A DNA stretch of 64,000 nt, taken from assembly GCA_964626635.1 (NCBI GenBank), contig CAZVFY010000001.1, positions 112,498 to 176,497 on the forward strand, written 5' to 3'. This document shows, piece by piece, positions 2,721 to 35,515 of this stretch. Below the pieces are notes generated by a model. It was not told where the DNA came from. It saw nothing but the letters and a program-made list of their open reading frames with translations, and did no database searches. How positions within the stretch are numbered: position 1 is the first letter of the stretch; each line of letters begins with the position of its first letter. Source of the DNA: an uncultured Candidatus Saccharibacteria bacterium. GTDB lineage: Bacteria > Patescibacteriota > Minisyncoccia > Phycocordibacterales > UBA918. The position numbers and the translations under genes were made by a program.

Positions 2721-2723
2721 ACG

Positions 2724-25200: not shown

Positions 25201-26610
25201 CAGGTAGTACCCACCGTTGACACTGTTGGATACCTCATCATCAATGATGACCGAGCCGCCAGTACTCCATGATGCACCCTGATCGAGGGAGTAGTTGACC
25301 GTCAAGGACGGCACCTCGTCTTGGGCATTGTTGCGCAATGCTGCGAGTGATAATCGTAGTTGCGCACCAGACAGAGTTGACCCCTCATCGAGCGGGTAGC
25401 CAAAGTTTGACAGGCGCATGGTATACTGACCACAGTCATCGCAGGTTAAAGTCGTCTCGTCATTTACGTCTGCACTAAAGTCAGTGATTGATCCGGCTGC
25501 CTCGCTTTCAGTGTCCGTATTGTCGACATTGCCAGATCTGGCTGCAGACGTGGTGGCAGTAGTGCCCGCATCATCAGCAGTGGTAGTGCCTGCAGCCGTA
25601 GCTGGTTGCGCCGGTACATTCGGTAGCGAAGTGCTGGTAGTAGCACTAGCAATGGCATTAGGATTGCCAGCCTCAACCGCATCTGGAGCCACTGGCTCTG
25701 TGACGGCGCCCGTCACTGTACTGGTGGCATCTGTTGCCGCTGCAATGTCCACAAGTTCTGGTGAGTCTAAGGCTGCAGTGTCAGCACTCTGCGTCGCCTG
25801 AGGTGCGTCAGCCACATCTATTTCAACAGCATCCGGGACAATCATAGCTTCAGCGTCGGTGCTCACCGCTGTCGTTGTCGCATCAAGCAGCAATCGACCG
25901 AGTGATGGTAAGAACACTGAAATGGTGCTAGTGCCAGCGTCAGGAGCAGTGTCTGTCGTAGCGTTTATCTCGATTGAATCGGTTGAATTATCAATACTCT
26001 CCTCTTCAATAGGAGTGGCAGGCGTGAGCGCGTCATTTGAGCCCGTTTGAGCGTTGTCAGACGGAACAGCATCGGCAACGGTGTCCGAATTGGTAGGCTC
26101 AGTATCCGCTGCTGCTGCTGATGCGTCGTTCGTCTCAACAGCAGACGCGACGTCAGACGTACTCGTGCTCGTACTAACAGCACTTTCAGTTTGACCGGAC
26201 GCAGTGGTAGTTCCGTTTTCTGGCAGGTCTACGAGCTCTGATGATCCCTGATTTGTTATTGACTCAGTACCCTCACCAGACTCTTGTGGCGGCTGGCCAG
26301 CTTGATCGAGAACATCGTTTGGGCCTGCATTGCCATCTACAGCTGGTTCATAATCTGGATCTAGCGTGGCTGAGTTGATGGTATTGAAATCTTGCAATAA
26401 TCCATACTCGTCAACGTTTTGGAACGTAACCGTTTTTGCATTTAGAAAACCTTCTGAGACAACCGCGGCAGGAAACACGTGTACGGTTTTTACAGTGTAT
26501 GCGCTCTGCATCAAATTTGCATACGACGAAAACGCTCCTCCCAATATGAGAGCAGCCAGCAACGCGTAGACAACATACTTTCTGGTACGTTTTGCGTTGT
26601 TCCGAATCAT
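4288..26610 (-). CDS. giant modular cell-surface protein (7,440 aa): signal anchor, acidic low-complexity stalk, DUF2341-like/LamG-like modules, FN3 domains, beta-helix-like modules
   Basis: Single uninterrupted 22,323-nt ORF. The ATG is confirmed at 26608-26610, preceded by SD AGGTGAGGT. The N-terminal hydrophobic helix is YVVYALLAALILGGAFSSYA. G(Q/L)LDE(L/V)R(I/F) LamG-like motifs recur. FWNNVRSDGGDIRV-type DUF2341-like motifs occur six times. YWWR(V/T)RA FN3 motifs occur twice. Every opposite-strand ORF inside it is short and composition-driven. Confidence 0.85.
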   Translation of the reverse strand: MIRNNAKRTRKYVVYALLAALILGGAFSSYANLMQSAYTVKTVHVFPAAVVSEGFLNAKTVTFQNVDEYGLLQDFNTINSATLDPDYEPAVDGNAGPNDVLDQAGQPPQESGEGTESITNQGSSELVDLPENGTTTASGQTESAVSTSTSTSDVASAVETNDASAAAADTEPTNSDTVADAVPSDNAQTGSNDALTPATPIEEESIDNSTDSIEINATTDTAPDAGTSTISVFLPSLGRLLLDATTTAVSTDAEAMIVPDAVEIDVADAPQATQSADTAALDSPELVDIAAATDATSTVTGAVTEPVAPDAVEAGNPNAIASATTSTSLPNVPAQPATAAGTTTADDAGTTATTSAARSGNVDNTDTESEAAGSITDFSADVNDETTLTCDDCGQYTMRLSNFGYPLDEGSTLSGAQLRLSLAALRNNAQDEVPSLTVNYSLDQGASWSTGGSVIIDDEVSNSVNGGYYLYALPDITDPAMLRDVVVELRFDHDDATVRELFVESAWLELFVLTPPENTEPTPFDQLIENTGFIDSNLSGDTLTLPDGEQVQFTFTDNNDDETLIIKSDQKTYEGLSQVTTYFSVTNTSDNADEFSVQTYFPNNVGEVTNLEVFSLNKPRQAVIPEYRPYVYHCEAGWAVDEPVDSLNSLTTERATSSQLSPTTTTELALSMTTAAANTAVGTITTTVNETDTETTYSCPGTNLARTCEVIEGEGTACIVTQKVQDHTVTQYARGWDPVTTNAGMGTEQGVLARTAAFFGLRPARKDVPDNFEGRVYTPDQFSIAPGETRYFKMDISFPPFSTGEYWVEAIGNREYGLLDPFWSSDWQYRMPLQVDNPTGTDQTEFQVRLTLDSAINDFWTNVDADGDDLRFVQETMAGNFSNEATAINNWLDFDFTHRIPLEIPAGAADADLANFPISVSLADFGSDFWNNVRSDGGDIRVYTSAGTELAIDLASIDTVAETGELHFLAPIIPTSAATTFYVYFGNSTLMPYAATDPLGAQAVWIEYDAVYHFNDTDVSQGAFLADATGNGNDLVIQNADMATSSGFFGTALDLRGANARAASTTWLFNGGDSLTTSGSYFMSSFDNGAIWQWGNGDQPNDIEFRPWYNAANGLHYFGTDNNTAQSRVIPRDTSIWRGFGTIGTSTLGGTNYWYENGFLQDTAVQVTANPSNTNSNGFNVGREGGGRYWDGQLDELRIRIAPRSVAFVRAESANLSSASDFYVTSGVQTPDNAATRNWYSTSWESRQRFTASDSRVSGTQTDFPVYLDLSILGNDFFNGVANDGSDIRITTGDGVTELPIELVNINTTDNTGELYFKADLGRGDNNEFYIYYDNEDAIAYERNATFGSENVWTNNFRAVYHFEEFAAGINNPDVYLDSTSNRYHADDNNTDTDTSGLFGRGAVFGAGVNDAIEPPNDIIDGIGNHTVSWWHNTTQSIDLSILSGANFDNNNEFSMFFSDPNVFRAYYNTGNELFNLDDTVGTFNTGEWQHYVVTGNTATDEVNLYVDGQGDNENPDTQSMTDTFDIPNGGLVIGQEQDAVNGAYDDQQRLIGQLDELRIAEVVRSAGWAETEYENMADNARFFSTSTAETLAITEFTELDFWIESWDSTADEAVVWVQVANIEAAGSLIYAYYGNSGAESASNELDTFSYDALTESYYVVDNNGAGTVSVVSLVDNNQVQLDGGTAVSLNRGEQATFTTYDGTSALSTFGPVSAAVITDSGDSSDVLVPISFATTSYVLPTARNENRTYVYAPFGTATVDFFLGDSATADDTIVLSSGAVAVSNTNPQGTDSAVQDGEGMRIESNVPILATHRSTNPGDGLTLLEPTTDDLYGVDSDNIVGIGLADAANPTYYCSDGNTGTYSGLTEGDIEVNGETCTNGSEGAGSAVRITGASSGVSFAQQADSDGNEATMFWPTSEFSTQYALTGATAYIAVVCAPEYGAVSLEVTTALGVTIETGTCSPGANTPGKAYFTNGTGSGDGANFAAGTLVRATNDRPFYMIMEDVSIDQDEKNVLGPRQARKFGAGAANFRALAQQEANGPEYTQLSFGWYQNTAALNLTTTWAINSTEFVSEGDSITGAGAVNTGDVLRLRMNVAGGNATSTAGTEAFALQYAPATVGQCGLATDWKLVGGVGSTTAAFAGFNNPSVSDGNTLPGTLLASSTDAGTYEERNLSNFNPVEFSPSTVMEWDWVLLTNNIDVNQTYCFRMIRANGETFDSYDSYPELETVGPPNVPLLQSFFDNEHTTQITPSLSFVANDIAGDDIHYELEIDDNRTFSSVVLSANSLTSPLSFTNLSATADKAPFSSGATVRFDSSSILASSTTYWWRVRASDPNGSGAFSDWSAPFSFTTDTTLTTSEWLQTTGGQFATNALTGVATTTGGADLVSSPGVITSTAIDFDDATIGNAWGELAWDATVTTGSFSVQIEYNNNGTWQLVPDASLTGNATGFTTSPVNLIDLDTREYNEIRLVANLSGSSVTLNNWQVRWGQRVEVPIQGDPFDNQKTADTLPTFDFVSTDPQGDDLEYEISFSTDFDFAGATTTYNSGVSTQFVNESNGSDLSPFISSERVTFDTPSGTPFANGVTYWWRTRAKDPAGGNAWSPWSEPDSFTIDTATTESTWFQTTQDQFSQGFFNGTVATTSGAVSLTNEIGEYGTVTLINNAWETITTSRTYDNMVVVASPEYNVTGQGDGRTPRIRNKTATGFEIKVDDHDGFSGTTVVDYLVLEAGEWELDDGAGGITLLAGTESLASTDLIRQPYDNGTGLTVPISTSFGTNPLAFATIVTVNDSTWVSAHLDAGNRSNEWTGGSIRLSLAKSMSDLPHSSGEDVDFVLMDQGSGTNNGTRFDTGRAFNDVEDSFSNGGHNFNLSGFTTMPGFTLLQQNSEGGGDGSFALKDLSGTQSNTNLFASVIEVGSRADAHGGDETVSLLAFESDTGILRRQDSGGLSGTFAGEDIIFSDGAGPKFANFAWNASTPASSVVRIQLQYRVSEGVYALVPDSQIPGNATGFTTSPIDLSGVDINTYDTIRALATLECVGSSCPTLDDWQLEWSEGVNMSGSLQEYDRTTNVTTGTVRAAVNGVPVSGVGVVSNGTWTLPNVTAFNGQIVTVWVDGADEQDEAVTSFVYDGLGDITGVALYEQHVSFVADEQGTITNQLLGLYDNTDDEDILFAVDGLNNLAVCGSGTCTDANLYVGPGQRYVPATSTAVSVSTHDFINDGTIELDNNSFTLSGSYDNNATSSTDTSTITFTAASTAETITSTEIPLDFHTLNISTGATATITVDVALDLSGDLSVNSGVFDRGESDIAVAGSVLTGATGNWQGTGTTTFNGTGSHTWTDNSPSTQNIGNVTIDGANLTVTAVTDVAAYDVVIGNNDTLVGGTGNTISVGGDWINNGSFNAGTSIVEIVEDDRVYPPIIPGSSDWYSDEDFGRRVPVVIDADEIDSTLTNFPIYLDLSTLGAAFWTDVASDGRDIRITSGDGQTELPHDLVEFDGADDTGELHFLADSVSATTDTSFYVYFANAAATAYAPTAQFGSQAVWAQYEAVYHFNDDVSATGNVVADATSNARDLVVTDNALATTSGQLGVGLNLESLNGYLNNPDFDWTAGDALVTSGWYLMDNADGGAYYQFGTGGNPNTINLRPWSGGGTGGGDGDFDFGDADGFNINPRNTTSWNQFFFVGTTVSGSSNRYYQNAILRDVANQTVNSPSNNDGFEVGRLGGGTTYFDALIDELRIATTTRNTAWIEAEYTNQNTPSIFYSAGVAESFQPDVVVDEATHNIAGGGSAFYTLRLNDASTTPVFTEPSLVVADDFIVATGTVALPTGTLTVGGSFTNNASFMHNNGTVLFNGAGTETITLGGTPFTNILNDVTFAGSGAWSVTDANATTSGQFAIQNGAVTMPTGTLAIGDTMNVTGGSFAHNDGSVRFYSDESINIITGGSAFNDVTFGAGGSFDWFDAAWTRRQQLTISASNLNATLTSFPVYVDLSDLGADFWSNVASDGADVRVTNSDNVQMPVELVSIDTDAETGELHFRADTLLATTDTVFYLYHNNGAASAPAPSSMYGRNNVWSNGYEAVFHLEETGDGTAGEFIDSTGNGYDGQGGAGAAVDVPTRTNGLLGSAQDFENSDNGDFIDLNTAMITGLEGANTKSVSAWSNVESWSDAGGLWNLGGSQTLQDYTVRVNDTNQWRAQHWDGDNTFAARPFGEWQHVALDYDGSDVRTYVNTINEDTIGRSLNTQDVSGYGVLIGRWRTGNYFDGLLDEVRFSSVSRSADWYAAEYANQNSPSTFYTADSQSLSADSQVFRLNEVNTNALGDVTINGVQLVAPTNNFNIGGSALNTGGSYNANNATTTFNSTDTGEVVAFGAAPFYNLVFDGVGGGWTVATNTVENRAVLQTGASFTQQPNTTLTVAGVFENRFAAAATTWTDSTLVLTGGDYVVTDRLDSGDDYANVSVSEDSDVVIWNSTIATSTIADSSSIYMPDYGGTDGLLRIYGQYDRTSGTEHWSYATDFDGTDLTGGSERAAQVRVANGGVVRIASTSALSALGSATASSTVDALAGNYSTVLSGSTIDARYLEVTNTDVAGVQLRDGATLGTFTDIEFAIATGTALTIDAATIEADPSRELNHIAFSTVTGAPHNVTLDDIPAAFWIFKTGTGNRYGESFDNDDGDPGAIQWSDSSFNIAVSGTIFQADTVTPMSAPVCNGVTEVVTVVVDGITTYRAPCSPLDGSYTVTGISYTGEPKLATYLESTAPNNSFVQAEIMSEVTGIGVSQPDFTVTRPEAIDGSVLVAIISKDDDPAITPPAGWTQIAGAGTGADDDIYTGVWYRVVSDASAEPANYTFTTVDNNERYQYWIGALVNVDTTNPLDVSSGVTQLVDDQTPAVPSVTTTAAGGLVLSSWFVDNDAAVDYPTSPDFVTHTEYVPNADNNNFNVVSQRLAVAGATDPLEAVGVNGGRDPHVITFAMRAATGATASGTATAAAITKTPIGATGDTFETITLTGEASGAENVVAGGTLALTRPATQDGDVLIAIIGKEDDPEITPPAGWTAISTLADTTQNDIFTGAWYRIVTNAASEPAAYDFISNGVNTQEHSYWIGSYDNVDTDVVVDAPAAWVKRVDDSTPAAPSVTTVSGGAEIIAAWFVLPELSVDVPSLPWQIRVRNLQVGTTQRNLTVLNRQQAVVGSTGDVMISSIGGGDETHTIQIALRPERISVANAIRNMNLYQDHVVVRHEDSDPLTISDMNLFDNTDDSDVPFVIGTSPDSLTVLAGNGLAVFDGKTFTPGGPVTLSGAGSTIADGSFRIGQSATYLSTTTDGLAVGGSFYVDAGGVYSGASSTVTFGASNPVSISAVGSSTIAIHDVIFAGSGMYALQTPLIVDTDVAVNSGTLTGVSDLTVENGDLSGAGVVDMIDGTVTLGSDNTFGSATPWSFYNLTFGSGAVAGVTTPATGSVVTTINNQLRIASGHFLDAGSTSWNLTGSGTVFDEQGTFLEDTATIRYSGVTPNVTQTAYYDLQIDAGVGSTTLATAPATGLQVLGDLQIGQTGSSTLRLDTNNPTLGVNQDLVIGTNGTLVASAVTPINVFGGWTNDGQFIANGGLVELLNATGTVAINAGDSAFYDLDIAGAGDFVFSESATSTNDTRLLSGSVTVNSAEQLAVGGEFRNQLDNALTTWTGSTLHLFGGGAYVVNDKLDADDYATVRVSSSTQPRFWNSDYAAITTEPGSSLYSMDHDQVIGDLHIYGDLRSDSFNDHWSYARDWDGASLATERIANVLVENGGSVLYTGGALTAAGTSTASTTIGVLGGTGTFDLTLGGTTTVDLHHYVVRDVTSDGLVLAGTPTIIELSHGDFVSPTIGASGITVGASVINANQARNFTGNGFSNASGGAAVNVKATGTPVSSWRFVNAFGNLVGEAFDADPDAGGDPGSIVWEDSAAIIDVTGRVYEADRTTVSNVCNGSTPNIRLSIQGLTFASTTCNATTGEYTFPGIGFGPSDTLTVYINDAGTEAATVTKDPISLIGNLDLYESHVIVRHESSDPMTIEAMSVYDSSNDSDIPFTATTGAVDTLTLAADTGLIIWNDKIFAPGGDVILPGGSIATHSGSLELFAGATFDGGTHAYSIGGSLLSDSAATFDAETSTTTFTSSATGRTIDTNDSGFHSLVLDGLGSWTIIDSEGDINQDLIINRGTLTLPAATTTVSGSFVNTGGSFNANAGALVLDSIEANQHIQFGGSAANRVEFTGSGSWAFLDTNSTTTDDIIISSGLVTLPSGTLEVAGNFIASSTIAHNGGTLLLTDTAGGNELTLGGDDAGTVQISAAGGDYTLTDSDATLLGSLTLTNGVFTSGSGTLAVGQSFDVSGGTFNNNGGTILLNGATSGLFIDTGNDNDFNNLVVAGSGAWTLVGSATTTNNFSLQTAGGFTVAPDSSVYVGGVFSNTVGGAATTWTDTTLVLDGANRYEVGVKTTATETYGTLQIGANSNISFWNSSAATTSVPLSSSLYSQDHAGSDGALNIYGSYTIATTTEHWSAATDFDGANISDRPVTVRIASSSSVILDGGVLNILGVTGATTTITNQGTGQYALIAQAGTLNAEFYDITNIDSDGLQLLLGVGVTSLSNGSFTQTSDGASLITLTPITINSNPNLVVTDTAFNAGGFSGGVNVNLSATTTNSWNFTGAIGDLWGEAFDIDGTDLCSSVRWDDSECLLIEQSNYRWRNDDGGEGAPTGTWYDDDWGQRQRIRVVNNNPTAVATTAVKLPVIYDADMQTDFDDVRVTLADGVSITPHWIERFQSGVDATVWFQAPALNDDVTEFYLYYGNLAANSSSDADQVFDTVEDFESSGLTPYDGDISLFNIGNSFAFGGALGLDTDGNEQQRATDGIARDGVTVSAGQTIRYMQYIDTSAGANDEVCTLFAVQSQMQDNNNYGLCVQQPGVDRISLVRDVVDTEASGTILESSSAIFTTGWYEFVIDWRVDGAMQVAMYDINGTLIADLSAIDTTYSSGGIGFTYWFQHGGWDSYVAYPRIGALPTVYLGDEQLDGGATWAGDQNTPTGGFSFGSVARLRVGIENTGLPIENQNFEIEFAPKLTAATCEAVPATNYAPVPTVASCGTSAICMANSTEVSNGDATSDHLVTDAGDFSAGEIVSNTGNRSNNLNLGQNRYTELEYALTLTTSAANDAYCFRVTDSGDELDAYNNLPELTLAFDPVISEVSLNDGLDIQLTAGTTTLITASTTVTDFNGVADLASATTTFYKTTANSNCTPNDNDCYIATSTCSFTACTGNSCSLQCTIPMVYHADPTDFDAGEEWFAFIEVSDQSGAADLRSSMGVELLTLRALDVQNAIAYGTVDVAQDTGTNNPNVDLINVGNENIDVQVAGTDMSDGIASVIPAGQQRFATSSFNYAACLGCATLSVLGTNVEVDLPKPVATDPPTTDQIFWGIEVPFGTASNPHTGVNTFTAVPD
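10990..12340 (-). repeat. tandem pair of ~200-aa homologous domains inside the giant ORF (approximate coordinates)
   Basis: Protein segments DGSVLVAIISKDDDPAITPPAGWTQI...VWYRVV...EPANYTF and DGDVLIAIIGKEDDPEITPPAGWTAI...AWYRIV...EPAAYDF. The PPAGWT codons were located at ~12215 and ~11505, about 710 nt apart. Confidence 0.6.
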
Positions 26611-26651
26611 CTATACTTACCTCACCTGTAGAGCTAGGATCGGTTTATGCA

Positions 26652-26688
26652 GTATACCGCGCAATCCCCTCAGGATTCCGCGGTATAC
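26652..26688. promoter_or_regulatory. long palindrome in the giant-gene upstream region; candidate operator overlapping a putative -10 (TATACT)
   Basis: GTATACCGCG c AATCC cctca GGATT c CGCGGTATAC: perfect 10-bp outer arms (26652-61 / 26679-88) plus a 5-bp inner stem. It lies 42-78 nt upstream of the ATG at 26610. The minus-strand TATACT (plus 26651-26656) overlaps the left arm. No U-tract follows in either orientation. Confidence 0.4.
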
Positions 26689-26725
26689 GCTCAATATGTT
26701 GATAAACAAACGTTATTTTGATGGT

Positions 26726-28258
26726 TTACTTTAGTATTGCCTTCACATCAGTAATCTCTTTTTCAATCAGTGTTTCAGATACTTCAAGTGCCTGAGTCAA
26801 ACCTTCTACAGCTTCTTTCTCGTTCTGTGATAATCGCTTGCGTTTAGTAATGTGGTTGATCTGATCATAAATTTCGTCGCGCAGCGCTGAGAATATTTTT
26901 TCCATCTGATCCTGTATCTCGCGTGTTTCGCGGCGCAGCTTGTCCTCTTTAATTTTAAGCGTTTTCTTCTCGTACCAGACATAGACACTCATAAGTCCTA
27001 GTGCAACAATAAGGAAGCAGATCAATAAATTTACAAATGTGAGATAGTCCAGCAAACTTCGTGACTCTTCGGCCTCGAATGGCTTGACCCAGCCAGCAGT
27101 AACCAAGGCAGCGGATGCAGCCTCGCGAGTGTTGCCAGCGAGATCGTGGGCTACTACGGTGACTGAATATGTTCCATCTTCAAGGTCACGTAGTAAATAG
27201 CCTAACTGAGCCTGCTCCGGAGTGATGGTCTCAGGTTCGTTCGTGCCAACGGTAACATCGTAGCGATCAATACCCGAAGTAGTATCTTCGGCCGAAAACA
27301 GTAGCGTTGGGAACGCGCTGCGGTCATTACCTGGCCTTACCTCAATTGAAAATGGTTCGGGTGGAGTAGTATCAATTCTAAGTAAACGATTAGTAACAGC
27401 TCCCCATCCAACTTGATTTTGGAAGCTGATACTGACGTACTGCTCACCCTCTAATGCATTATCTGCATTAACAGTAAAATCTTCGATGGGTGGGTCGATG
27501 ATCGCACCTTCGTTCTCATGAGGCACGTTGTTAGGATCATCGCTGATCTCTACCGCAATCGCAGTCACATCAAATGGTAATGACCAGCGAAACTGTCCTA
27601 CTACACTGCTGTACCACTCTGCAGCCTCAAGAAAGACCGGTGAACCAATTTCTGGCGCCCTGGGTGGATCACCAAAAATAATTGCGTCTCCGCTCGTCGG
27701 GTCACTTGTTTCAGTTGGGGCTGATTCTTCATTTAGCGCGCTCGGTGTCGGGGCCGTAGCCTGAGCGAGGGTGTACTGACCACCGCTGCCTCCAGCGTAT
27801 ACATCCGTCCCTAGCCCATCAGCAGCTAAGACAGAAGCTTCAGCAAACGACACCCCGGCATCGCCCTCTCCAATCACTCGAAAAGTTACATTGACTACCG
27901 TAGAGCTAGTCGTGAACGGTTGTGGGCTACCACCGCCAAAGGTGATAGTCCCAGCGGTATTAGAAAATGTCGGCTCAGTCGTCCACAGTGAAAATACCGA
28001 ACCATTTTTATCTACGCTTACCACCGATAACTGGGACGGATCGAACCCTAACGTTGCTTCAACTGCGTTCACACTGTCGCCACCAGGTACTGCTCGCACG
28101 GTGGTGGTGAAAGTTTGGCCACTATTATAAGTACCGGTACTGGGCGAAAGATTGAGGGTAGCTGCACTCGCAGACCACCCAAGACCCAGCAGTACTATAA
28201 TAAATACAAACCTGCTCACTATCCGTAAAATATCATTTTGTAAAATTAGCTTATGCAT
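26726..28258 (-). CDS. membrane-anchored surface protein with N-terminal cohesin-like domain, FN3-like region, one TM helix and cytoplasmic coiled-coil tail
   Basis: Signal peptide, then ATLNLSPSTG...VNAVEATLGFDPSQLSVVSVD...GTITFGGG...VVNVTFRV, which matches the cohesin beta-sandwich pattern. TM LICFLIVALGLMSVYVWY precedes a K/E-rich helical C-terminus. Confidence 0.55.
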   Translation of the reverse strand: MHKLILQNDILRIVSRFVFIIVLLGLGWSASAATLNLSPSTGTYNSGQTFTTTVRAVPGGDSVNAVEATLGFDPSQLSVVSVDKNGSVFSLWTTEPTFSNTAGTITFGGGSPQPFTTSSTVVNVTFRVIGEGDAGVSFAEASVLAADGLGTDVYAGGSGGQYTLAQATAPTPSALNEESAPTETSDPTSGDAIIFGDPPRAPEIGSPVFLEAAEWYSSVVGQFRWSLPFDVTAIAVEISDDPNNVPHENEGAIIDPPIEDFTVNADNALEGEQYVSISFQNQVGWGAVTNRLLRIDTTPPEPFSIEVRPGNDRSAFPTLLFSAEDTTSGIDRYDVTVGTNEPETITPEQAQLGYLLRDLEDGTYSVTVVAHDLAGNTREAASAALVTAGWVKPFEAEESRSLLDYLTFVNLLICFLIVALGLMSVYVWYEKKTLKIKEDKLRRETREIQDQMEKIFSALRDEIYDQINHITKRKRLSQNEKEAVEGLTQALEVSETLIEKEITDVKAILK

Positions 28259-28755
28259 GAATATACTTGATTACTTTTGTTTGAACGCATTCGGGAAGCT
28301 GTCTTTGGTTTGCTACTACCGACCTTGAGGGTGACCTTTGATTTCTCACTCGCTTTAAGGAGAGGCAGTGTGAGCACTAACACACCGTACTTAATCTTGG
28401 CATCCGCTTCATCGATGTTGACTGACTCAGGTAAAATGATACGGCGATAAAATTCGCCCCACTCGCACTCTTCAGCCACAAACGCACCAGAAACTTTTTT
28501 ACGCGGGAAAGCTATGTGTTCTGGGCGGGTGCGACGACCCTCAATTAGCACGATGTCGGCGTCACCCTCAATGGATACATGCACGTCTTCCATATCAGCA
28601 CCAGCACACTGTGCGTACACGACGATCATCCGTTCTGTTTGGTAGACATCAACGTGTAGTTGAGCAATCTTGTCCGCAGCGGTTTCTTCTGAGTCGGATA
28701 GAAGACCATCATTTTCACGCACCCCCTTACCTTTTAATCGCTGCAGAAAGGACAT
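28246..28755 (-). CDS. Hsp20/alpha-crystallin family small heat shock protein
   Basis: Alpha-crystallin domain pattern DVYQTERMIVVYAQCAGADMEDVHVSIEGD...GAFVAEECEWGEFYRRIILPESVNIDEADAKIKYGVLVLTLP, ending with the typical GVL.LTLP motif. Confidence 0.8.
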   Translation of the reverse strand: MSFLQRLKGKGVRENDGLLSDSEETAADKIAQLHVDVYQTERMIVVYAQCAGADMEDVHVSIEGDADIVLIEGRRTRPEHIAFPRKKVSGAFVAEECEWGEFYRRIILPESVNIDEADAKIKYGVLVLTLPLLKASEKSKVTLKVGSSKPKTASRMRSNKSNQVYSCIS

Positions 28756-28812
28756 ATATCAATAGTATACAAAGTTTAGTTCTGTCAATGCGTGGTTTAC
28801 CCACACAAGCGA

Positions 28813-30681
28813 CTAGCCCGTCCAATTAAACAACAAGATCGAGAAGTCAGTCAGGCTCACATTCCCGTCGCCGTTTATATCAGCCGGTGGGTCAGACGCG
28901 CCACCGTCAGTCTGCCACCAAAACAACAAGATCGAGAAGTCAGTCAGATTAACTGACCCATCTCGATTGAGGTCAGCGGCCATACCGGCAGCTAAGGCTT
29001 GACCAACACCGAAAAACTCGTGCTGAGACCAATTCGTATTAGCGCCGCCGACTTGCTCGGCTTTGGCTCGTACCTGGTACGTATCTCGCGCGTAGGTGCT
29101 TGTATCGAGCGTGATGCGATAGGCACCAGTTTGGTCAGTCAGGGCGGTCGAGGTCTTTTGTACCCCACTCCCGCGCCGACCTGACTCAATGGTGACGGTG
29201 GCGTTTGGTAACCCATAACCACTTACAATAAGGGTCTCACCTGGCTCGACTGGATCAGGTGTGATGGTTATTGTGGGTGTGATATTAATATTTGATAATT
29301 CTGAAGCGCGGGCGCCACTAACTGTAAAGGTGGTGCTAAATACCCCAGATTGCTCGTCATTTTCATCGGTGGCGAACACCGCAAAGGTGTACGCACCCCG
29401 AGCAATATCATCCACCGTTACTTCATATGAGCCATCTGCGTCGGCGCGGACTCGGTCTGACTGAAACCCATCTACCAGCACCGATACCTCTGACCGCGGC
29501 GGTGCAAAGCCGCTGATGATCACTCGACCTTCACCTGACTCGTACGGTCCGTCATTTTCAAATCCGCCACCTGTACCATCACCATCGCGGCGTCCACCAC
29601 CACCGCCGCCGCCCGAGCCGCCCGAGCCGCCCGCACCTGATGTTTGTCCCTCGGTATTTGCACCTCCATCTGATGAGCCACTAGTACCACCACCTCCATC
29701 ACCAGACCCGGTACCATCATTGCCAGAGCCAGTACCATCACCACTCGTACTACCAGTGGTGTTAGATTGACCCGTCGGTTGCGCCAAGACAGTAAAGGAA
29801 ATTAAATAATCGTCAATATTTTCGTTAGTCTCATCGTCAACGCACCGAACATAAAATTCTTGCACTGAGTTTGGTGTGACGGTCACGACCGAAGTGTGTA
29901 CCACTAATCCAGTGTTATCAAACGTAAAAGGCTGTAAGGCAAACGCGATATCTGGCGTCCGGGCATACTTACAAACTGCAAACTCGTTCGTTTCAACGGA
30001 AATTTCTACACTCAGGTTTGTTCCCGCAATCGTACTAGTCGGTGAACCACCGAATCGCTCGGGCGGAATTTCTTCGGTCGTGTCACCGGTGACCGTGACT
30101 TTTTCATTTAGAAATACGGTGAAATCCGCTCCAGCAATTTTCCCGCCGTTTTGCACCGAAAACGGAATGCGATGCAATCCTAGATCCGTGCTATTGCGAA
30201 TCGGTTCAATATCAGCCGGGATAGTAGTCGTGCCCGTGGTCGTGCTAAAGACGTCACGCACGCCGAGGGCACCCAATGTCTGGTTACCAATATATAGCTC
30301 GAGCTCAGCACCAGATGGAATGGACAGGTCAGATCCCAGAGTATATGTAATTAACCCACCCGAGCCACCGGCGATACTGACCCCGTCGACACCAACTCCA
30401 GCGCTCGACGCCGTGTCACGCGCAATCCCATCAACGTGCAGCTGGACGTTACGCACTCCAAAGGTGGTGGTGGCTGGCGTCAGGTAAAAGTCACCAGGTA
30501 ATTGATACGTGAACACTGAACCAGGACCAAATGGTACCAAGGTGGTAAAAGAAAGCGTGTGATTTGAAAATTCCGCCGGCCCAGAATCCGACACCGTGTT
30601 CTTGAAATTTGAAATATTTGTTGCGTCAGTACTACTTGGCCACAGCCCAATCAACACAAACAGAAAGAGTACTCGCCACAT
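28813..30681 (-). CDS. secreted protein with Gly/Ser-rich linker, two Ig-like/carboxypeptidase-regulatory-like domains and a C-terminal dockerin (two Ca-binding repeats)
   Basis: Signal peptide MWRVLFLFVLIGLWPSSTDA. The C-terminus DLNRDGSVNLTDFSILLFWW...DINGDGNVSLTDFSILLFNW is a type-I dockerin duplicated segment (DxNxDGxVNxxD). Confidence 0.7.
   Translation of the reverse strand: MWRVLFLFVLIGLWPSSTDATNISNFKNTVSDSGPAEFSNHTLSFTTLVPFGPGSVFTYQLPGDFYLTPATTTFGVRNVQLHVDGIARDTASSAGVGVDGVSIAGGSGGLITYTLGSDLSIPSGAELELYIGNQTLGALGVRDVFSTTTGTTTIPADIEPIRNSTDLGLHRIPFSVQNGGKIAGADFTVFLNEKVTVTGDTTEEIPPERFGGSPTSTIAGTNLSVEISVETNEFAVCKYARTPDIAFALQPFTFDNTGLVVHTSVVTVTPNSVQEFYVRCVDDETNENIDDYLISFTVLAQPTGQSNTTGSTSGDGTGSGNDGTGSGDGGGGTSGSSDGGANTEGQTSGAGGSGGSGGGGGGGRRDGDGTGGGFENDGPYESGEGRVIISGFAPPRSEVSVLVDGFQSDRVRADADGSYEVTVDDIARGAYTFAVFATDENDEQSGVFSTTFTVSGARASELSNINITPTITITPDPVEPGETLIVSGYGLPNATVTIESGRRGSGVQKTSTALTDQTGAYRITLDTSTYARDTYQVRAKAEQVGGANTNWSQHEFFGVGQALAAGMAADLNRDGSVNLTDFSILLFWWQTDGGASDPPADINGDGNVSLTDFSILLFNWTG
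28828..28947. repeat. perfect 27-bp direct repeat (AAACAACAAGATCGAGAAGTCAGTCAG) 93 nt apart, encoding the two dockerin segments
   Basis: Copies at 28828-28854 and 28921-28947. The reverse complement encodes LTDFSILLF in both dockerin repeats. Confidence 0.9.
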
Positions 30682-30695
30682 ATGTACACCTTACC

Positions 30696-31124
30696 TTACA
30701 TCACCGGGCGCATTGAAGGCTTTTCCCTAACCGCTGGTCGCTGGCGCACAAAATCCAGCACATAATTGAGTACAATCAGCACCAACATGATAAATAATAT
30801 TGAGGCGAGAACGTACGTAGAACGATCCATTGGTTCGCCAGACTCGCGGAGCGAGACTGCTATTTCCCGCTCTTCTAACATCGCTTCACGCGTCGCGAGC
30901 GCCGTCCGCTGTGCGGTCAGCTCAGCAGTGATGCTGTTGAACTCGTTTGGGGCGACAGAGGCCGACATACCGACACTAGCGCCGAGATACTCGATCGCGC
31001 CATCAAACATATCTGCAGTACTGGGGTGGAGCAAGCCAGTGGCATACACCAACGTGATCGCTGTCACCAGGGATCCGATTCGCAGTAGTTTGTGGTACAG
31101 CGTATCACGCATACTGTTAGGCAA
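30696..31124 (-). CDS. small bitopic/double-TM membrane protein with central coiled coil (hypothetical)
   Basis: 142-aa ORF with hydrophobic segments IGSLVTAITLVYATGLL and YVLASILFIMLVLIVLNYVL and a helical A/E/R-rich middle. An 8-nt overlap with the upstream gene and a 14-nt gap before the dockerin gene suggest co-transcription. Confidence 0.4.
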   Translation of the reverse strand: MPNSMRDTLYHKLLRIGSLVTAITLVYATGLLHPSTADMFDGAIEYLGASVGMSASVAPNEFNSITAELTAQRTALATREAMLEEREIAVSLRESGEPMDRSTYVLASILFIMLVLIVLNYVLDFVRQRPAVREKPSMRPVM

Positions 31125-32196
31125 ATAATAGCAACATTACGAGTAAGAATATCGCCAGCACCACCAGCACCGCCAGCAGCGTCACTAGCAACAGTGACTG
31201 GCCGCCCGCTTGCTTGCGGCGGACCACGCGCCGTCCGACGCTGAGCTGCGCCACTTTACGTTTGATGTAGATACGCACCCCGATGACAGTGACTAGCAGT
31301 ACCACCGCTAGCACGCCCAGCACTGGGCCGATAATACTGAACGGCAAAATCCAGAATGTCACCGTGCTACTCATGGTCTTTCGTGCACCATCGAGTCCAT
31401 ACACTGGACTGAGGATCGCTTCGTACCGCCCAAAGCCAATCTCGTCTCCTTCCCATGTCAGTGCAAATTCTCGAGTGTCATTGGGGAAGACACCGGCTTG
31501 CGTGTCATTAAACGCCACCTCTCCTACCCTCGCTCCGAGTGCATTGTAAATCTCCAACGGTCCAGTCGGGCGGACTAGTACATTTCCCTGATTTTCAATC
31601 CGGACTTGGAAATCGACATTTTGTGATCCATACAAGAATTTACCTGTCGAGAACTGTCGGATATTCGCGGTCTCTACTGCGTCACCGCTGACCCTGATAC
31701 TGACGATGTTGGCTACCTGGTAGCCTACCGCTGCGCCACTTTGGCTGATGTCCGGGGCCTCGACCGACACAAAAATCCCCCCAAAATTACTACCTGGCGG
31801 CGCGTCCTCAGGCACATCCATCTGGAACGTAAACGCTCGAGTTGTCCCGGCTGGTACCGTGATCGTGGTGGTCGATAGCGTGATCCAGTCGACCAATTCA
31901 AAGCCGGTTGCATCCAAGTTCGAATTAGCAAACACCGGCACTCCACCATCGTCTACTGATTCAATGTTGCGTGTAAACAAAAAATACGTCTGCTCTTCAT
32001 CGGTTAGGTTACCGACCTCGACAGTACGGTTGACGGTGATTCCGGGATCGAGCGTTTCCTCGATTACTGCCGGCGAGATACTGACGCCGGCACCTGACTG
32101 TGCGTGCAATGCCTGTGTTCCGAAAAGCCACACTGAAACAGCGAGTGTCAGCAGCGTGATGATTCGTAATATCAGTGGGTGAGATAAGGCTTGCAT
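31117..32196 (-). CDS. cell-surface protein resembling the DUF916 (CscA-like) family with C-terminal double TM anchor (DUF3324-like)
   Basis: Signal peptide, then VSISPAVIEETLDPGITVNRTVEVGNLTDEEQTYFLF...VPEDAPPGSNFGGIFV, as in DUF916. The C-terminus has two hydrophobic helices separated by basic residues. Confidence 0.45.
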   Translation of the reverse strand: MQALSHPLILRIITLLTLAVSVWLFGTQALHAQSGAGVSISPAVIEETLDPGITVNRTVEVGNLTDEEQTYFLFTRNIESVDDGGVPVFANSNLDATGFELVDWITLSTTTITVPAGTTRAFTFQMDVPEDAPPGSNFGGIFVSVEAPDISQSGAAVGYQVANIVSIRVSGDAVETANIRQFSTGKFLYGSQNVDFQVRIENQGNVLVRPTGPLEIYNALGARVGEVAFNDTQAGVFPNDTREFALTWEGDEIGFGRYEAILSPVYGLDGARKTMSSTVTFWILPFSIIGPVLGVLAVVLLVTVIGVRIYIKRKVAQLSVGRRVVRRKQAGGQSLLLVTLLAVLVVLAIFLLVMLLLFA

Positions 32197-32244
32197 ATTG
32201 CACTAGTGTAGCAGCCGCAGAGGATTAAATATTTCTGTATACAC

Positions 32245-32278
32245 AAAACCACCCAGGCCGGATGGTCTGGGTGGTTTT
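32245..32278 (-). terminator. bidirectional Rho-independent terminator after the WxL-like gene
   Basis: AAAA CCACCCAG gccggatggt CTGGGTGG TTTT: perfect 8-bp GC-rich stem with a 10-nt loop, flanked by an A-tract and a T-tract, immediately 3' of the minus-strand CDS ending at 32328. Confidence 0.75.
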
Positions 32279-32327
32279 GATGCTCTCAGTGACTAATAGA
32301 TTCAGCCAGTGTAGCGGGTGCGAGCAA

Positions 32328-33461
32328 CTAGAAGGTTGGTGTCGCGATGTAGGTCAGAGTTGTGTTGTAGTCGTCACCAGCTTCCTGGAGTGGAGTGATT
32401 TCGAGCTTGTACGCAACTTGTGTTACACCTTCGTTGGCAACTGTACCGTTGGTTACTCCGTCGTGTGAGAAGATTTCTCGTGGCGTAGTACTCGCTGATA
32501 CGAATAATGATGTACCAAATTCATCAGTGTTCAGGTCATCTTCTGAAGTCAGACCCCAGTGACCGTAGGTGTTTTCACTATTGACTGTGTTAGTCGGTGA
32601 AGCCCAAACCGTTGGTGTATCGGTGTAAGTACCGTCAACGAATCCGTCGATGTCAGCTCCGGTTGATGAGATCAGATTAGAGTCCTGCTCGACTGTCACC
32701 ACAAAACCATTGATGGCGTTAGTAGTAACATTGAGCTGCTGTCCAATGATCTTGGCGTTAGCAGATCCTGGTGCTACTTCACCAAATGGGATGGTAGTAG
32801 TTGAACTGTCATCAGTGGTAGTCTCGCCATTGACGTCAGTACCAGCTGCTAATGGGCTAATTACAAAGTCAAAGATAGATGCCACTTCGGCAGTGACTTC
32901 AACTGTGTCGATGATAGCTACTCGAGTACGACCACTGTCCGGTGTACCGTTGGTTGCATCCGCAACTTCGACGAGAACCTCGTACGAGTCGCCGATGCCG
33001 GCCGCTGCTACTTTAGCTGGATTGACGATTTTACCGTCTGCGACCACGACTTGAATAGTATCTCCCGCGCCGGCAGCCAGACCGTCAAAGGTAATGCTGT
33101 CAGCTGTTGCTGTAAATGTACCTAGCGTGAATGCCCCATCGCCAGTTACCGTGAGGTCAGCTCCGACAACTGTTTCGATGTCGTCAAACGGTTCTGAGAC
33201 TGCACCCTGATCACGAGCATCCCAAGTGATGGTGATGTCGTCAGCCGTGGTTATAGTCGAACCGGTTGGTACGGTGAACTCAATGGTGTGAGAAGACGTC
33301 ACGCTCGGATTTGAACTCGAGAGTGTGTTACTCACGCTAGTAAGGTTAGCTGCTTGTGCAGAATGGAAATACCCTGCTGAGGCAAATACCACTGCACCAG
33401 CAACAAGTGTCGCGACCACTCGTTGCGAAATGCCAACTGAATTGGTTGGAATTACGAACAT
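32328..33461 (-). CDS. secreted surface protein, candidate WxL-domain (CscB/CscC-like) protein
   Basis: Signal peptide (AGAVVFASAGYFHSAQA), a T/S/D-rich beta-rich body, and a C-terminal region with YGHWGLTSED (W-x-L) that ends ...TLTYIATPTF. Sits next to the DUF916-like gene. The second WxL motif is degenerate, so the call is tentative. Confidence 0.4.
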   Translation of the reverse strand: MFVIPTNSVGISQRVVATLVAGAVVFASAGYFHSAQAANLTSVSNTLSSSNPSVTSSHTIEFTVPTGSTITTADDITITWDARDQGAVSEPFDDIETVVGADLTVTGDGAFTLGTFTATADSITFDGLAAGAGDTIQVVVADGKIVNPAKVAAAGIGDSYEVLVEVADATNGTPDSGRTRVAIIDTVEVTAEVASIFDFVISPLAAGTDVNGETTTDDSSTTTIPFGEVAPGSANAKIIGQQLNVTTNAINGFVVTVEQDSNLISSTGADIDGFVDGTYTDTPTVWASPTNTVNSENTYGHWGLTSEDDLNTDEFGTSLFVSASTTPREIFSHDGVTNGTVANEGVTQVAYKLEITPLQEAGDDYNTTLTYIATPTF

Positions 33462-33788
33462 GTATTATTTTATTTAATTGTAAATAACGTGGCGCTCACT
33501 TCCTTATATTATGTAAAGAGTGAACTAACCCGGCACAACACTTGTATGGAGAGATGTCTGGCATTCGTATGTGAGAAAGTCTCAGCCTGTGAATGCGACA
33601 TCAATGTTGTACCGATCTACGATTATTTTACGCTACTACCCGAGTGCTTGTCCGATTACTGCTGTTGATAACTACTATTGGACGTCCCTGTATCGCTTAT
33701 TCCAGCCTTATTCGCCTAGTCGCAATAGCTTGCTTTCGGCCATGTCCCATGGATCCCGTCATGTACAAACGTCTTTTTATGGTCGATG

Positions 33789-35506: not shown

Positions 35507-35515
35507 AGCAAAATA

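What the first reader, a model, noticed from the sequence alone, without database searches (positions are those of the whole stretch)
26726..30681. Cohesin-like membrane protein and dockerin-bearing secreted protein in one gene cluster, with an Hsp20 between them
Gene 26726..28258 begins with a cohesin-type beta-sandwich pattern and is membrane-anchored with a cytoplasmic coiled-coil tail. Gene 28813..30681 ends in a textbook type-I dockerin duplicated segment (DLNRDGSVNLTD... / DINGDGNVSLTD...). A cognate cohesin-dockerin pair encoded side by side implies a non-cellulosomal Ca-dependent surface-display system. It would tether the secreted Ig-like/Cna-B-like protein to the cell via the cohesin anchor. 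The cytoplasmic small heat-shock protein inserted between them overlaps the cohesin gene start by 13 nt, which is an odd companion for two envelope proteins.
Basis: partly seen in the sequence, partly recalled or inferred. Interest (0 to 1): 0.65.

Follow-up and report, generated by a model that had tools for sequence, protein, structure and literature searches.

The report
Cohesin-dockerin surface tether in ultrasmall bacteria
A group of ultrasmall (Patescibacteria) bacteria keeps one membrane anchor with a cohesin module and one secreted protein with the matching dockerin module next to a giant surface protein, which looks like a plug-and-socket device for fixing proteins to the cell surface, borrowed from cellulose-degrading bacteria; binding itself has not been tested.

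Summary
Gene 26726-28258 (-) encodes signal peptide, cohesin (Pfam 31.2 bits, cut-off 24.1; best fold matches are type I cohesins), PT-rich linker, two Ig-like domains, one membrane helix and a cytoplasmic helical tail. Gene 28813-30681 (-) ends in a two-segment dockerin (31.0 bits, cut-off 22.9). An Hsp20 gene lies between them and overlaps the cohesin gene by 13 nt.

The cluster is conserved in about 80 Patescibacteria species. Each locus has exactly one cohesin and one dockerin. They occur together in 60 loci and are absent together in 4. One genome (L082) has degraded both and lacks the giant gene. One genome (L083) keeps a divergent cohesin without the dockerin gene. A cognate pair is therefore likely, but binding is untested.

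- The anchor's core (two Ig domains, membrane helix, nearly invariant tail) is an older and wider family, and the cohesin is an add-on.
- Hsp20 was not inserted. Hsp20 and the anchor look like one two-gene unit, with a conserved upstream motif and a downstream hairpin.
- A 7,440-residue DUF2341/LamG protein always accompanies the dockerin gene, and WxLIP-like genes lie upstream.

This is a new variant of a known kind, of moderate interest.

The parts
26726..28258 (-). Anchor protein (510 aa): signal peptide, cohesin, PT linker, two Ig-like domains, membrane helix, cytoplasmic tail
   Evidence: ORF; Pfam Cohesin 31.2 bits, Big_13 weak; AlphaFold2 model; more than 890 homologs, the top 120 being 59-69% identical over full length
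27764..28162 (-). Cohesin module (residues 33-165)
   Evidence: Foldseek best hits are type I cohesins, target TM about 0.75. Near-invariant columns are enriched on strands 3, 5, 6 and 8: 21/49 against 8/51, p 0.004
27074..27676 (-). Two Ig/Fn3-like domains (residues 195-395), part of the older core
   Evidence: AlphaFold2 strands; Big_13 24.4 bits; present in cohesin-less relatives
26969..27046 (-). Transmembrane helix region (residues 405-430)
   Evidence: Kyte-Doolittle peak 2.52 at 409-427 and positive-inside charge pattern
26729..26968 (-). Nearly invariant cytoplasmic two-helix tail (residues 431-510) with invariant TKRKR in its loop
   Evidence: Alignment A1; median 89% identity to consensus against 74-75% for the ectodomain; 219 hits in the 1.84-billion representative library, always at the C-terminus
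28246..28755 (-). Hsp20 small heat-shock protein (169 aa), cytoplasmic
   Evidence: Pfam HSP20 39.9 bits; no hydrophobic segment; directly upstream of the anchor gene wherever upstream DNA is present (77 loci with both ORFs called), 59-82% identical
28797..28805 (-). Conserved motif TGTGGGTAA upstream of hsp20
   Evidence: Single copy in the window. Found in 67 of 74 distinct loci, mostly 49-52 nt before the hsp20 ATG
28764..28769 (-). -10-like box TATACT, 8 nt before the hsp20 ATG
   Evidence: A TATAAT-like box ends 8 nt from the ATG in 39 of 64 scored loci and lies 26-29 nt after the motif
28813..30681 (-). Secreted dockerin protein (622 aa): signal peptide, two-domain head, Gly-rich linker, two Big_6 Ig domains, dockerin
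   Evidence: ORF; Pfam; AlphaFold2 model; 606 homologs, the top 120 being 50-61% identical apart from a 100% identical fragment, nearly all carrying PF00404
28816..28977 (-). Dockerin module (residues 569-622), two near-identical segments
   Evidence: Pfam Dockerin_1 31.0 bits; nearly invariant across orthologs; weak sequence match to the C. thermocellum CelS dockerin, E 0.002
26649..26690 (-). Strong hairpin after the anchor gene, terminator-like but with no U tract
   Evidence: MFE -34.4 kcal/mol, z -3.5. An equivalent hairpin occurs in 67 of 77 distinct loci, with varying inner stem sequence but kept pairing
4288..26610 (-). Giant secreted protein (7,440 aa) with DUF2341 and LamG/pentaxin-like repeats
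   Evidence: ORF; Pfam DUF2341 86 bits, Laminin_G_3 46-49 bits. It follows the anchor gene in every locus with enough downstream DNA except L082 and L083
30696..31124 (-). Small protein (142 aa) with two hydrophobic segments, function unknown
   Evidence: ORF; hydropathy; conserved in synteny
31117..32196 (-). WxLIP/DUF916-like membrane protein (359 aa)
   Evidence: The window copy scores 26.1 bits on WxLIP_PGBD, just below the 27.3 cut-off. 32 of 33 orthologs match, best E 2.1e-9. C-terminal membrane helices
32328..33461 (-). Secreted protein (377 aa) whose N-terminal two domains are paralogous to the head of the dockerin protein
   Evidence: hhalign of A3 against A2: probability 98.9%, E 2.5e-17, 235 columns; no Pfam family

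Best explanation
This is a non-cellulosomal, one-to-one cohesin-dockerin tether on the surface of a Patescibacteria (CPR, Kaiserbacteria/Paceibacteria-type) cell.

The anchor (26726-28258) is exported by a cleaved signal peptide and held in the membrane by one C-terminal helix. Its two Ig-like domains and PT-rich linker hold a single type I-like cohesin away from the membrane. The 622-residue protein (28813-30681) is secreted, and its C-terminal two-segment, calcium-loop dockerin plugs into that cohesin. This fixes its beta-sandwich head, on a long glycine-rich linker, to the cell.

The tether belongs functionally with the 7,440-residue DUF2341/LamG protein encoded just downstream. Most likely it is part of one surface adhesion or attachment structure, possibly with the dockerin protein as an adaptor.

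Hsp20 is not part of the tether. It forms an older two-gene unit with the anchor's core (Ig-Ig-TM plus invariant cytoplasmic tail), and the cohesin was grafted onto that core.

Shown here: domain identities, topology, one-to-one stoichiometry in the loci, co-occurrence and co-loss, and signals consistent with a separate hsp20-anchor transcription unit.
Inferred: physical binding, calcium dependence, the link to the giant protein, and the biological role.
For: Domain identity:
- Cohesin and dockerin both score above Pfam's curated cut-offs.
- The cohesin fold matches solved type I cohesins.
- Both calcium loops have D/N at positions 1, 3, 5 and 12 (sequence).

Topology:
- Both proteins have signal peptides. 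The anchor has a single membrane helix with a positive-inside charge pattern.

Stoichiometry and conservation:
- There is one cohesin and one dockerin per locus across 1.54 Mb of related loci, and only one dockerin in the 64 kb window.
- Gene order is conserved in about 80 species representatives.
- The dockerin is almost invariant.
- Cohesin near-invariant positions are concentrated on strands 3, 5, 6 and 8, the face that binds dockerin in solved type I complexes (p 0.004).

Presence and absence:
- Both present in 60 loci, both absent in 4, dockerin without cohesin in 0.
- In L082 the dockerin gene is a remnant, the cohesin module is deleted in frame and the giant gene is absent, while hsp20 and the Ig-TM-tail core are kept.
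- In L083 the dockerin and giant genes are absent. Its cohesin has changed 14 of 41 otherwise near-invariant positions, 13 of them on or next to the 3-5-6-8 face.
- The giant gene is present exactly where the dockerin gene is.

The older core:
- Cohesin-less relatives form a wide family.
- Their loci have no dockerin protein, giant gene or WxLIP block.
Against: - No binding experiment or complex model was possible.
- AlphaFold2 gives the dockerin pLDDT below 50 and no helices.
- The dockerin helices are unusually hydrophobic compared with solved dockerins, and the sequence match to those is weak (E 0.002).
- No covariation between cohesin and dockerin was seen: L045 and L077 have several cohesin changes with an unchanged dockerin.
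- L083 keeps a Pfam-positive cohesin (36.7 bits) without a dockerin gene in the locus.
- Only the local 10 kb flanks were examined, so further cohesins or dockerins elsewhere in these roughly 1 Mb genomes are not excluded.
- Neighbouring unrelated genes (umuD, umuC) are also syntenic. Gene order alone is therefore weak evidence, and the cohesin-less loci are not phylogenetically independent.
Confidence: 0.65

Rival explanations
1. Both modules are real but are not partners. The cohesin binds something else, for example the giant protein or a host-cell ligand. The dockerin serves as a calcium-binding or carbohydrate- or host-binding module, or docks to a cohesin encoded elsewhere.
For: L083 keeps a cohesin without the dockerin gene. 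No cohesin-dockerin covariation was found. The dockerin is poorly modelled. Many non-cellulosomal dockerins have no known cohesin partner (general knowledge). A dockerin-domain protein was classed among essential cell-envelope proteins in a Saccharibacterium; the authors speculated that it targets host glycans and did not mention a cohesin (PMC10633639).
Against: There is one of each per locus. Dockerin never occurs without cohesin. Both are degraded together in L082. The conserved face of the cohesin is the canonical dockerin-binding face.
Confidence: 0.2
2. The dockerin protein is the outer subunit of a two-component surface layer. The cohesin anchor is its membrane stalk, comparable to a stalk-plus-lattice S-layer. 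It is then not an adaptor for the giant protein.
For: The best Foldseek hit of the dockerin protein is an archaeal S-layer glycoprotein (7ptp_A, E 3.6e-10), and SlaA/SlaB also appears in the list. Both proteins are highly conserved and single-copy in the loci.
Against: TM-scores of those hits are only 0.13-0.15, which is a generic multi-Ig resemblance. L082 and L083 do without the dockerin protein. Its presence tracks the giant gene perfectly.
Confidence: 0.12
3. The adjacency has no functional meaning. This lineage simply keeps gene order, and the cohesin and dockerin genes are neighbours by descent.
For: umuD, umuC and a CAP/YkwD gene are syntenic with the cluster over the same range and even beyond it.
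Against: Unrelated genes are often inserted between other members of the cluster (FGE-sulfatase paralogs, ABC transporter, MgtE, FG-GAP protein). Yet the modules are gained and lost together.
Confidence: 0.08

Closest known systems
Type I cohesin-dockerin pairs of clostridial cellulosomes (e.g. C. cellulolyticum 2vn5, C. acetobutylicum 6kgf, C. thermocellum OlpC 4dh2)
   Same: Same two Pfam families. The cohesin fold superposes at rmsd 2.3-2.9 A. The dockerin has two duplicated calcium-loop segments about 31 residues apart. The near-identical segments (LTDFSILLF in both) recall dockerins with a dual binding mode.
   Different: There is a single cohesin, not a multi-cohesin scaffoldin. The dockerin protein carries no enzyme or carbohydrate-active domain. 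The anchor is a C-terminal membrane helix with a cytoplasmic tail rather than SLH domains or sortase. The dockerin helices are hydrophobic rather than K/R-rich. The host is an ultrasmall bacterium with no sign of cellulose use.
Non-cellulosomal cohesin and dockerin modules found widely in bacteria and archaea (e.g. the C. perfringens glycoside hydrolase cohesin 2vo8; surveys of non-cellulosomal modules, from my own knowledge)
   Same: The plug-and-socket pair is used outside cellulose degradation. 2vo8 is among the fold matches.
   Different: Here the pair is strictly one-to-one and encoded two genes apart. It is conserved across about 80 species and co-inherited with a giant DUF2341/LamG protein. 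I found no paper describing it.
WxL / Csc cell-surface clusters of lactobacilli and enterococci (WxL proteins, DUF916-DUF3324 WxL-interacting protein, small anchored protein)
   Same: The upstream gene 31117-32196 belongs with the WxLIP_PGBD (DUF916) family at the level of its orthologs and has C-terminal membrane helices. It sits beside a secreted protein and a small membrane protein.
   Different: No WxL domain is detected in 34 orthologs of the neighbouring secreted protein. The small protein has no LPXTG motif. The window copy of the WxLIP domain is 1 bit below the Pfam cut-off.
Giant DUF2341-containing proteins of Patescibacteria noted in PMC11809585
   Same: Proteins of more than 4,000 residues with DUF2341 domains in Patescibacteria, proposed to act in adhesion or host interaction.
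   Different: That paper does not describe the conserved cohesin anchor, dockerin protein or Hsp20 next to them.

Membership tests
Cohesin (PF00963, type I-like) | Sequence profile match above the curated cut-off | tested here: met
   31.2 bits against 24.1, E 2.9e-7. Most homologs carry a precomputed PF00963 hit.
Cohesin (PF00963, type I-like) | Nine-stranded beta-sandwich fold like solved cohesins | tested here: met
   AlphaFold2 pLDDT mostly near or above 90 (87-94 per 10-residue block over residues 31-140); the strands map in order onto the nine cohesin strands. Foldseek 6kgf_C E 1.8e-9, target TM 0.75, rmsd 2.3 A.
Cohesin (PF00963, type I-like) | Conserved dockerin-binding face (strands 8-3-6-5) | tested here: met
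   Near-invariant columns: 21/49 on strands 3, 5, 6, 8 against 8/51 on strands 1, 2, 4, 7, 9, Fisher p 0.004. Strand mapping was by sequence order, not by superposition.
Cohesin (PF00963, type I-like) | Calcium-dependent binding of a dockerin | not testable with these tools
   No multimer prediction or experiment was available.
Dockerin type I (PF00404) | Sequence profile match above the curated cut-off | tested here: met
   31.0 bits against 22.9, two stretches. NCBIfam dockerin_GC scores only 20.7 against 29.
Dockerin type I (PF00404) | Two tandem segments of about 22 residues, each with a 12-residue EF-hand-like calcium loop | tested here: met
   DLNRDGSVNLTD and DINGDGNVSLTD, 31 residues apart, with D/N at positions 1, 3, 5 and 12.
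Dockerin type I (PF00404) | Loop-helix (F-hand) fold | tested here: inconclusive
   AlphaFold2 pLDDT is below 50 over almost all of 565-622 (only residues 600-614 are not flagged), and no helices are assigned.
Cellulosome | Scaffoldin with several cohesins and dockerin-bearing carbohydrate-active enzymes | tested here: not met
   One cohesin and one dockerin per locus. The dockerin protein has only Ig-like and beta-sandwich domains.
Hsp20 / alpha-crystallin (PF00011) | Alpha-crystallin domain above the cut-off, no export signal | tested here: met
   39.9 bits against 20.8; no hydrophobic segment.
WxL / Csc surface cluster | DUF916 (WxLIP_PGBD) protein with a C-terminal membrane anchor | tested here: inconclusive
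   The window protein scores 26.1 bits against the 27.3 cut-off. 32 of 33 orthologs match, best E 2.1e-9. Membrane helices at 288-306 and 340-358.
WxL / Csc surface cluster | Protein with a C-terminal WxL domain (PF13731) | tested here: not met
   No WxL hit in 34 orthologs of gene 32328-33461. The 'HWGL ... LTYIATPTF' resemblance is only my impression. The giant protein's C-terminus shows no relation to it.
DUF2341/LamG giant surface proteins | DUF2341 and Laminin_G_3 domains above the cut-offs | tested here: met
   DUF2341 86.3 and 57.7 bits; Laminin_G_3 46.2 and 49.5 bits.

The most novel reading that the evidence does not exclude
The anchor is a transmembrane adhesion receptor rather than a passive peg. 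Its nearly invariant cytoplasmic tail is more conserved than the ectodomain and is shared by a wide Patescibacteria family with or without the cohesin. That tail engages a cytoplasmic partner, the co-transcribed Hsp20 being the obvious candidate. What is docked outside (the dockerin protein and the giant adhesin, perhaps in contact with a host cell) would then be coupled to the inside of the cell, somewhat as integrin tails couple adhesion to the cytoplasm.
Probability: 0.12. Interest if true: 0.85.

Novelty: new variant of a known kind. Interest (0 to 1): 0.55.

Why it matters
Patescibacteria are a large share of uncultivated bacterial diversity. The few cultivated ones live attached to host cells, and how the others attach is largely unknown.

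A conserved, single-copy plug-and-socket pair next to a 5,500-7,750-residue surface protein gives a concrete and testable candidate for part of that attachment apparatus. The two small modules can be expressed and tested for calcium-dependent binding without culturing the organism.

It also extends cohesin-dockerin use to a membrane-helix anchor with a conserved cytoplasmic tail. That architecture differs from cellulosomal scaffoldins.

The natural loss variants (L082, L083, and L010 with a one-segment dockerin) offer ready-made controls.

Tried and rejected
1. Apparent Hsp20-anchor fusion ORFs of 667-672 aa in L018, L062 and L077 were a bug in my ORF script. Real stop codons separate the genes.
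2. I tested whether the giant protein's C-terminus is related to the C-terminal part of gene 32328-33461. hhalign gave probability 0.1%, so this is rejected.
3. I looked for WxL domains in gene 32328-33461 and its orthologs and found none.
4. I looked for covariation between cohesin and dockerin substitutions and found none; the dockerin is too invariant.
5. L083's cohesin might show relaxed constraint. The result is suggestive only, because L083 is also the most divergent sequence elsewhere.
6. A third homolog search, seeded with the cohesin-less P0262, returned mainly cohesin-bearing proteins. The cohesin-less ones sat on contigs too short for context.
A subgroup alignment (A7) worked.
8. 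The generic sigma-70 promoter and terminator scan of 26000-34000 found no more sites than shuffles. It missed both conserved signals found later by comparison.
9. Foldseek of the dockerin protein gave only generic multi-Ig matches and no functional lead.
10. Profile searches of both families against PDB sequences gave only weak dockerin hits and an Ig motif.
11. Rfam found only a tRNA at 47717-47801.
12. Literature searches for this operon found nothing.
13. A cohesin-linker-dockerin fusion for AlphaFold was considered and dropped.

Full report
**What is in the window.** All genes of interest lie on the - strand.

| Coordinates | Product |
|---|---|
| 35060-35506 | umuD (just upstream of the cluster) |
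| 33789-35063 | umuC (just upstream of the cluster) |
| 32328-33461 | 377 aa secreted protein |
| 31117-32196 | 359 aa protein |
| 30696-31124 | 142 aa protein |
| 28813-30681 | 622 aa dockerin protein |
| 28246-28755 | 169 aa Hsp20 |
| 26726-28258 | 510 aa cohesin anchor |
| 4288-26610 | 7,440 aa giant protein |

**Domain assignments.**
- Pfam places the 510-residue protein in Cohesin (31.2 bits, cut-off 24.1) and the 622-residue protein in Dockerin_1 (31.0 bits, cut-off 22.9) and Big_6.
- The 169-residue protein is in HSP20 at 39.9 bits.
- The giant protein carries DUF2341 and Laminin_G_3/pentaxin-like domains.
- The 13-nt overlap between the hsp20 stop and the anchor ATG is real at the sequence level.
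- Only one dockerin-type motif pair exists in the whole 64 kb.

**The anchor protein.** An AlphaFold2 model built on 37 homologs has mean pLDDT 81.5. It shows these elements:
- a signal-peptide helix;
- a beta-sandwich at residues 33-165;
- a disordered PT-rich linker at 169-194;
- two further beta domains at 221-295 and 305-386;
- a long helix at 408-471 that includes the membrane segment;
- a second helix at 478-509.

The best PDB matches of the first domain are type I cohesins, with E down to 1.8e-9, target TM about 0.75 and rmsd 2.3 A. Hydropathy gives one membrane helix at 409-427. Eight K/R follow it within 20 residues against two before it, so the tail is cytoplasmic.

**The dockerin protein.** Its model has mean pLDDT 69.9.
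- It has a confident N-terminal beta domain (23-191) and a second, less confident domain (223-298).
- A disordered, glycine-rich linker follows (299-382; 35 G among 84 residues).
- Two Ig domains come next, and then the dockerin.
- The dockerin itself is poorly modelled (pLDDT below 50).
- Both calcium loops are canonical by inspection.
- The helices FSILLFWW and FSILLFNW are unusually hydrophobic. The two segments are nearly identical.
- Fold search gave only generic multi-Ig matches.

**Who has it.**
- The anchor has more than 890 homologs. The top 120 are 59-69% identical over the full length and about 505-520 residues long. Source names include Candidatus Kaiserbacteria, Pacebacteria and Paceibacterota.
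- The dockerin protein has 606 homologs. Apart from a 100% identical fragment, the top 120 are 50-61% identical, and almost all carry PF00404.
- In 80 species-representative genomes the order is kept wherever the contig reaches far enough. The order is umuD, umuC, 377-aa gene, 359-aa gene, 142-aa gene, dockerin gene, hsp20, anchor, giant gene.
- Unrelated genes are often inserted between the 142-aa gene and the dockerin gene: FGE-sulfatase-domain paralogs, an ABC transporter, MgtE and EamA. An FG-GAP protein sits between the dockerin gene and hsp20 in L001. None of these carries a dockerin.
- Across 1.54 Mb of related loci there is exactly one cohesin and one dockerin per locus.

**Is the pair cognate?** Binding could not be tested. 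Four lines of evidence bear on it.
- *Conservation.* The dockerin is almost invariant. Near-invariant cohesin positions are concentrated on strands 3, 5, 6 and 8 (21 of 49 positions against 8 of 51 on the other sheet, p 0.004). That is the face that binds dockerin in solved type I complexes (established knowledge of 1OHZ-type complexes).
- *Presence and absence.* Among loci with at least 5 kb upstream, 58 were scored with both modules and 3 with a cohesin but no full dockerin. Two of those three are not real exceptions. L057 is masked by N, and L010 has a dockerin reduced to one segment. That leaves 60 with both, 1 with cohesin only (L083), 4 with neither and 0 with dockerin only.
- *Loss together in L082.* The dockerin gene is a remnant: residues 4-84 run into residues 552-596, followed by a stop. 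The cohesin module of the anchor is deleted in frame. The giant gene is missing. Hsp20 and the Ig-Ig-TM-tail core are intact.
- *Divergence in L083.* This locus lacks the dockerin and giant genes. Its cohesin has changed 14 of 41 otherwise near-invariant positions, 13 of them on or next to the putative binding face. L083 is also the most divergent sequence overall, so this is only suggestive.

Four points weigh against the claim. I found no cohesin-dockerin covariation. The cohesin-less loci are not independent lineages. Only the local flanks were examined. Gene order in this clade is conserved even for unrelated neighbours.

**The anchor's core is older than the cohesin.**
- Searching the TM-plus-tail segment (111 residues) against 1.84 billion representatives gave 219 hits. 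The match is always at the C-terminus.
- Of the best 150, 62 have the cohesin module. Another 42 are complete proteins of 310-400 residues with signal peptide, the two Ig domains, the membrane helix and the tail, but no cohesin.
- The tail (KLRRETREIQDQMEKIFSALRDEIYDQ ... TKRKRLS ... ALEVSETLIEKEI) is the most conserved part of the protein. Its median identity to consensus is 89%, against 74-75% for the ectodomain.
- Loci of a cohesin-less subgroup show this order: CAP/YkwD, umuD, umuC, the Ig-TM-tail gene, an AI-2E transporter, a small gene, PGA_cap, FKBP and TGT.
- Those loci have no dockerin protein, giant gene or WxLIP block.
- One such locus (L091) has hsp20 between umuC and the anchor core. 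Five others do not.
- L082 and L083 share the same downstream backbone.

In the window's clade, then, the dockerin gene block was added upstream of hsp20. The cohesin was added to the N-terminus of the anchor, and the giant gene was added downstream.

**Hsp20.** It is a normal cytoplasmic small heat-shock protein.
- It lies directly upstream of the anchor gene in every locus of the clade that has the DNA. True stop codons separate the genes, and the gap is usually a few to about 40 nt.
- Comparing upstream regions revealed a conserved motif TGTG(G/T)(G/A)TAA. In the window it lies at 28797-28805 and is the only copy in 64 kb. It is present in 67 of 74 distinct loci, mostly 49-52 nt before the hsp20 ATG.
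- A TATAAT-like box follows 26-29 nt later and ends 8 nt before the ATG. This suggests a dedicated promoter and a nearly leaderless mRNA.
- Directly after the anchor gene there is a strong hairpin (window 26649-26690, -34.4 kcal/mol, z -3.5).
- Equivalent hairpins occur in 67 of 77 distinct loci. Their inner stems differ in sequence but keep pairing. A conserved TCCACA lies within 50 nt after the stop, mostly at 12-14 nt, in 47 of 77 loci.
- Hsp20 and the anchor therefore look like a two-gene unit with its own start and stop signals.
- In many loci the dockerin gene's stop is followed at once by the motif, so read-through from upstream is also likely.
- Hsp20 is retained with the anchor core after the giant gene is lost. 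That argues against a chaperone dedicated to the giant protein.

**Other members of the cluster.**
- The 359-residue protein is WxLIP/DUF916-like at family level: 32 of 33 orthologs match, best E 2.1e-9. The window copy is 1 bit below the cut-off. It has C-terminal membrane helices.
- The 377-residue protein has no Pfam family. Its first two domains are homologous to the head of the dockerin protein (hhalign 98.9%, E 2.5e-17). The cluster therefore encodes two paralogous heads with different C-terminal ends.
- These three upstream genes persist in L082 and L083, so they are independent of the dockerin-giant module.

**Comparison with what is known.**
- The modules are members of the cohesin and dockerin families.
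- The system is not a cellulosome. It has one cohesin, no enzymes and a membrane-helix anchor.
- Non-cellulosomal cohesin-dockerin pairs are known (my own knowledge; 2vo8 among the fold hits).
- Giant DUF2341 proteins of Patescibacteria have been noted (PMC11809585). A dockerin-domain protein classed as essential has been noted in a Saccharibacterium (PMC10633639).
- I found no description of this operon.
- I rate it a new variant of a known kind, with moderate interest. It is not surprising in principle but is unusually clean and directly testable. The invariant tail and Hsp20 linkage are an open question.

Noticed in passing
window 28797-28805 and 28764-28769 (- strand): A conserved 9-mer TGTG(G/T)(G/A)TAA lies upstream of hsp20 in 67 of 74 distinct related loci. 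A TATAAT-like box follows 26-29 nt later and ends 8 nt before the ATG. This looks like a dedicated promoter or operator with a nearly leaderless mRNA. The factor that would bind it is unknown.
   Followed up: partly
window 26649-26690 (- strand); 90 nt after the anchor stop in L001-L084: A strong GC-rich hairpin follows the anchor gene in 67 of 77 distinct loci. Stem sequences vary but pairing is kept. There is no U tract, and the outer stem contains a TATA(A/C)T box. A conserved TCCACA lies within 50 nt after the stop, mostly at 12-14 nt, in 47 of 77 loci (not exact in the window). TCCACA partly mirrors the upstream TGTGG motif.
   Followed up: partly
window 26729-26968 (- strand): The cytoplasmic tail of the anchor is nearly invariant across the family. 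Its loop contains the invariant residues TKRKR followed by L-S (S nearly invariant). No Pfam or PDB relative was found. The loop resembles a basophilic kinase site, but that is speculation.
   Followed up: partly
L082 8985-9354 and 9971-11110: This natural variant has a dockerin gene reduced to a remnant, an anchor with an in-frame deletion of the cohesin, and no giant gene. Hsp20 and the Ig-TM-tail core are kept.
   Followed up: yes
L010 7658-9466: The ortholog's dockerin has only one of the two repeated segments (ADLNSDGKVNLTDFSILLFNWTG). This looks like a precise deletion between the repeats.
   Followed up: partly
window 29536-29787 (- strand), residues 299-382 of the dockerin protein: The glycine-rich linker (35 G, 12 S, 10 T and 7 D among 84 residues) is conserved in sequence, not just in composition, across orthologs. 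It has GDGTGSGNDGTGSG-type repeats that might bind calcium.
   Followed up: no
window 32328-33461 and 28813-30681: The first two domains of the 377-aa protein and of the dockerin protein are paralogous (hhalign 98.9%). The 377-aa protein ends in HWGL ... LTYIATPTF, which reminded me of WxL domains, but Pfam does not support that.
   Followed up: partly
L020 2633-5126, L053 1688-7426 and many other loci: Relatives carry arrays of 2-6 paralogous proteins of about 267 aa with FGE-sulfatase domains, plus an ABC transporter, MgtE or EamA genes. These sit between the 142-aa gene and the dockerin gene. The window has none.
   Followed up: partly
window 33789-36770; L085-L091: The order CAP/YkwD, umuD, umuC, (hsp20), anchor core is kept well beyond the cohesin-bearing clade, at 31-43% identity for umuC. 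The reason for the link between translesion polymerase genes and this membrane protein is unknown.
   Followed up: partly
window 4288-26610 (- strand): This is a 7,440-residue ORF with a signal peptide, a long acidic/Ser/Thr-rich region near the N-terminus and repeated DUF2341/LamG units. Domain order varies between orthologs. A GGTGAGG ribosome-binding site lies 9 nt before its ATG.
   Followed up: partly
window 173-4535 (- strand): Downstream of the giant gene lie a 603-aa fibronectin-III/purple-acid-phosphatase-N protein and a MacB-like ABC ATPase plus FtsX permease pair. The longest ORF of the 603-aa protein overlaps the giant gene's end by about 250 nt, so its true start is probably later.
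   Followed up: no
P0001 (100% identical to window 26726-28258): One public source (JGI) names the identical protein 'large-conductance mechanosensitive channel'. None of the domain evidence here supports that name.
   Followed up: no
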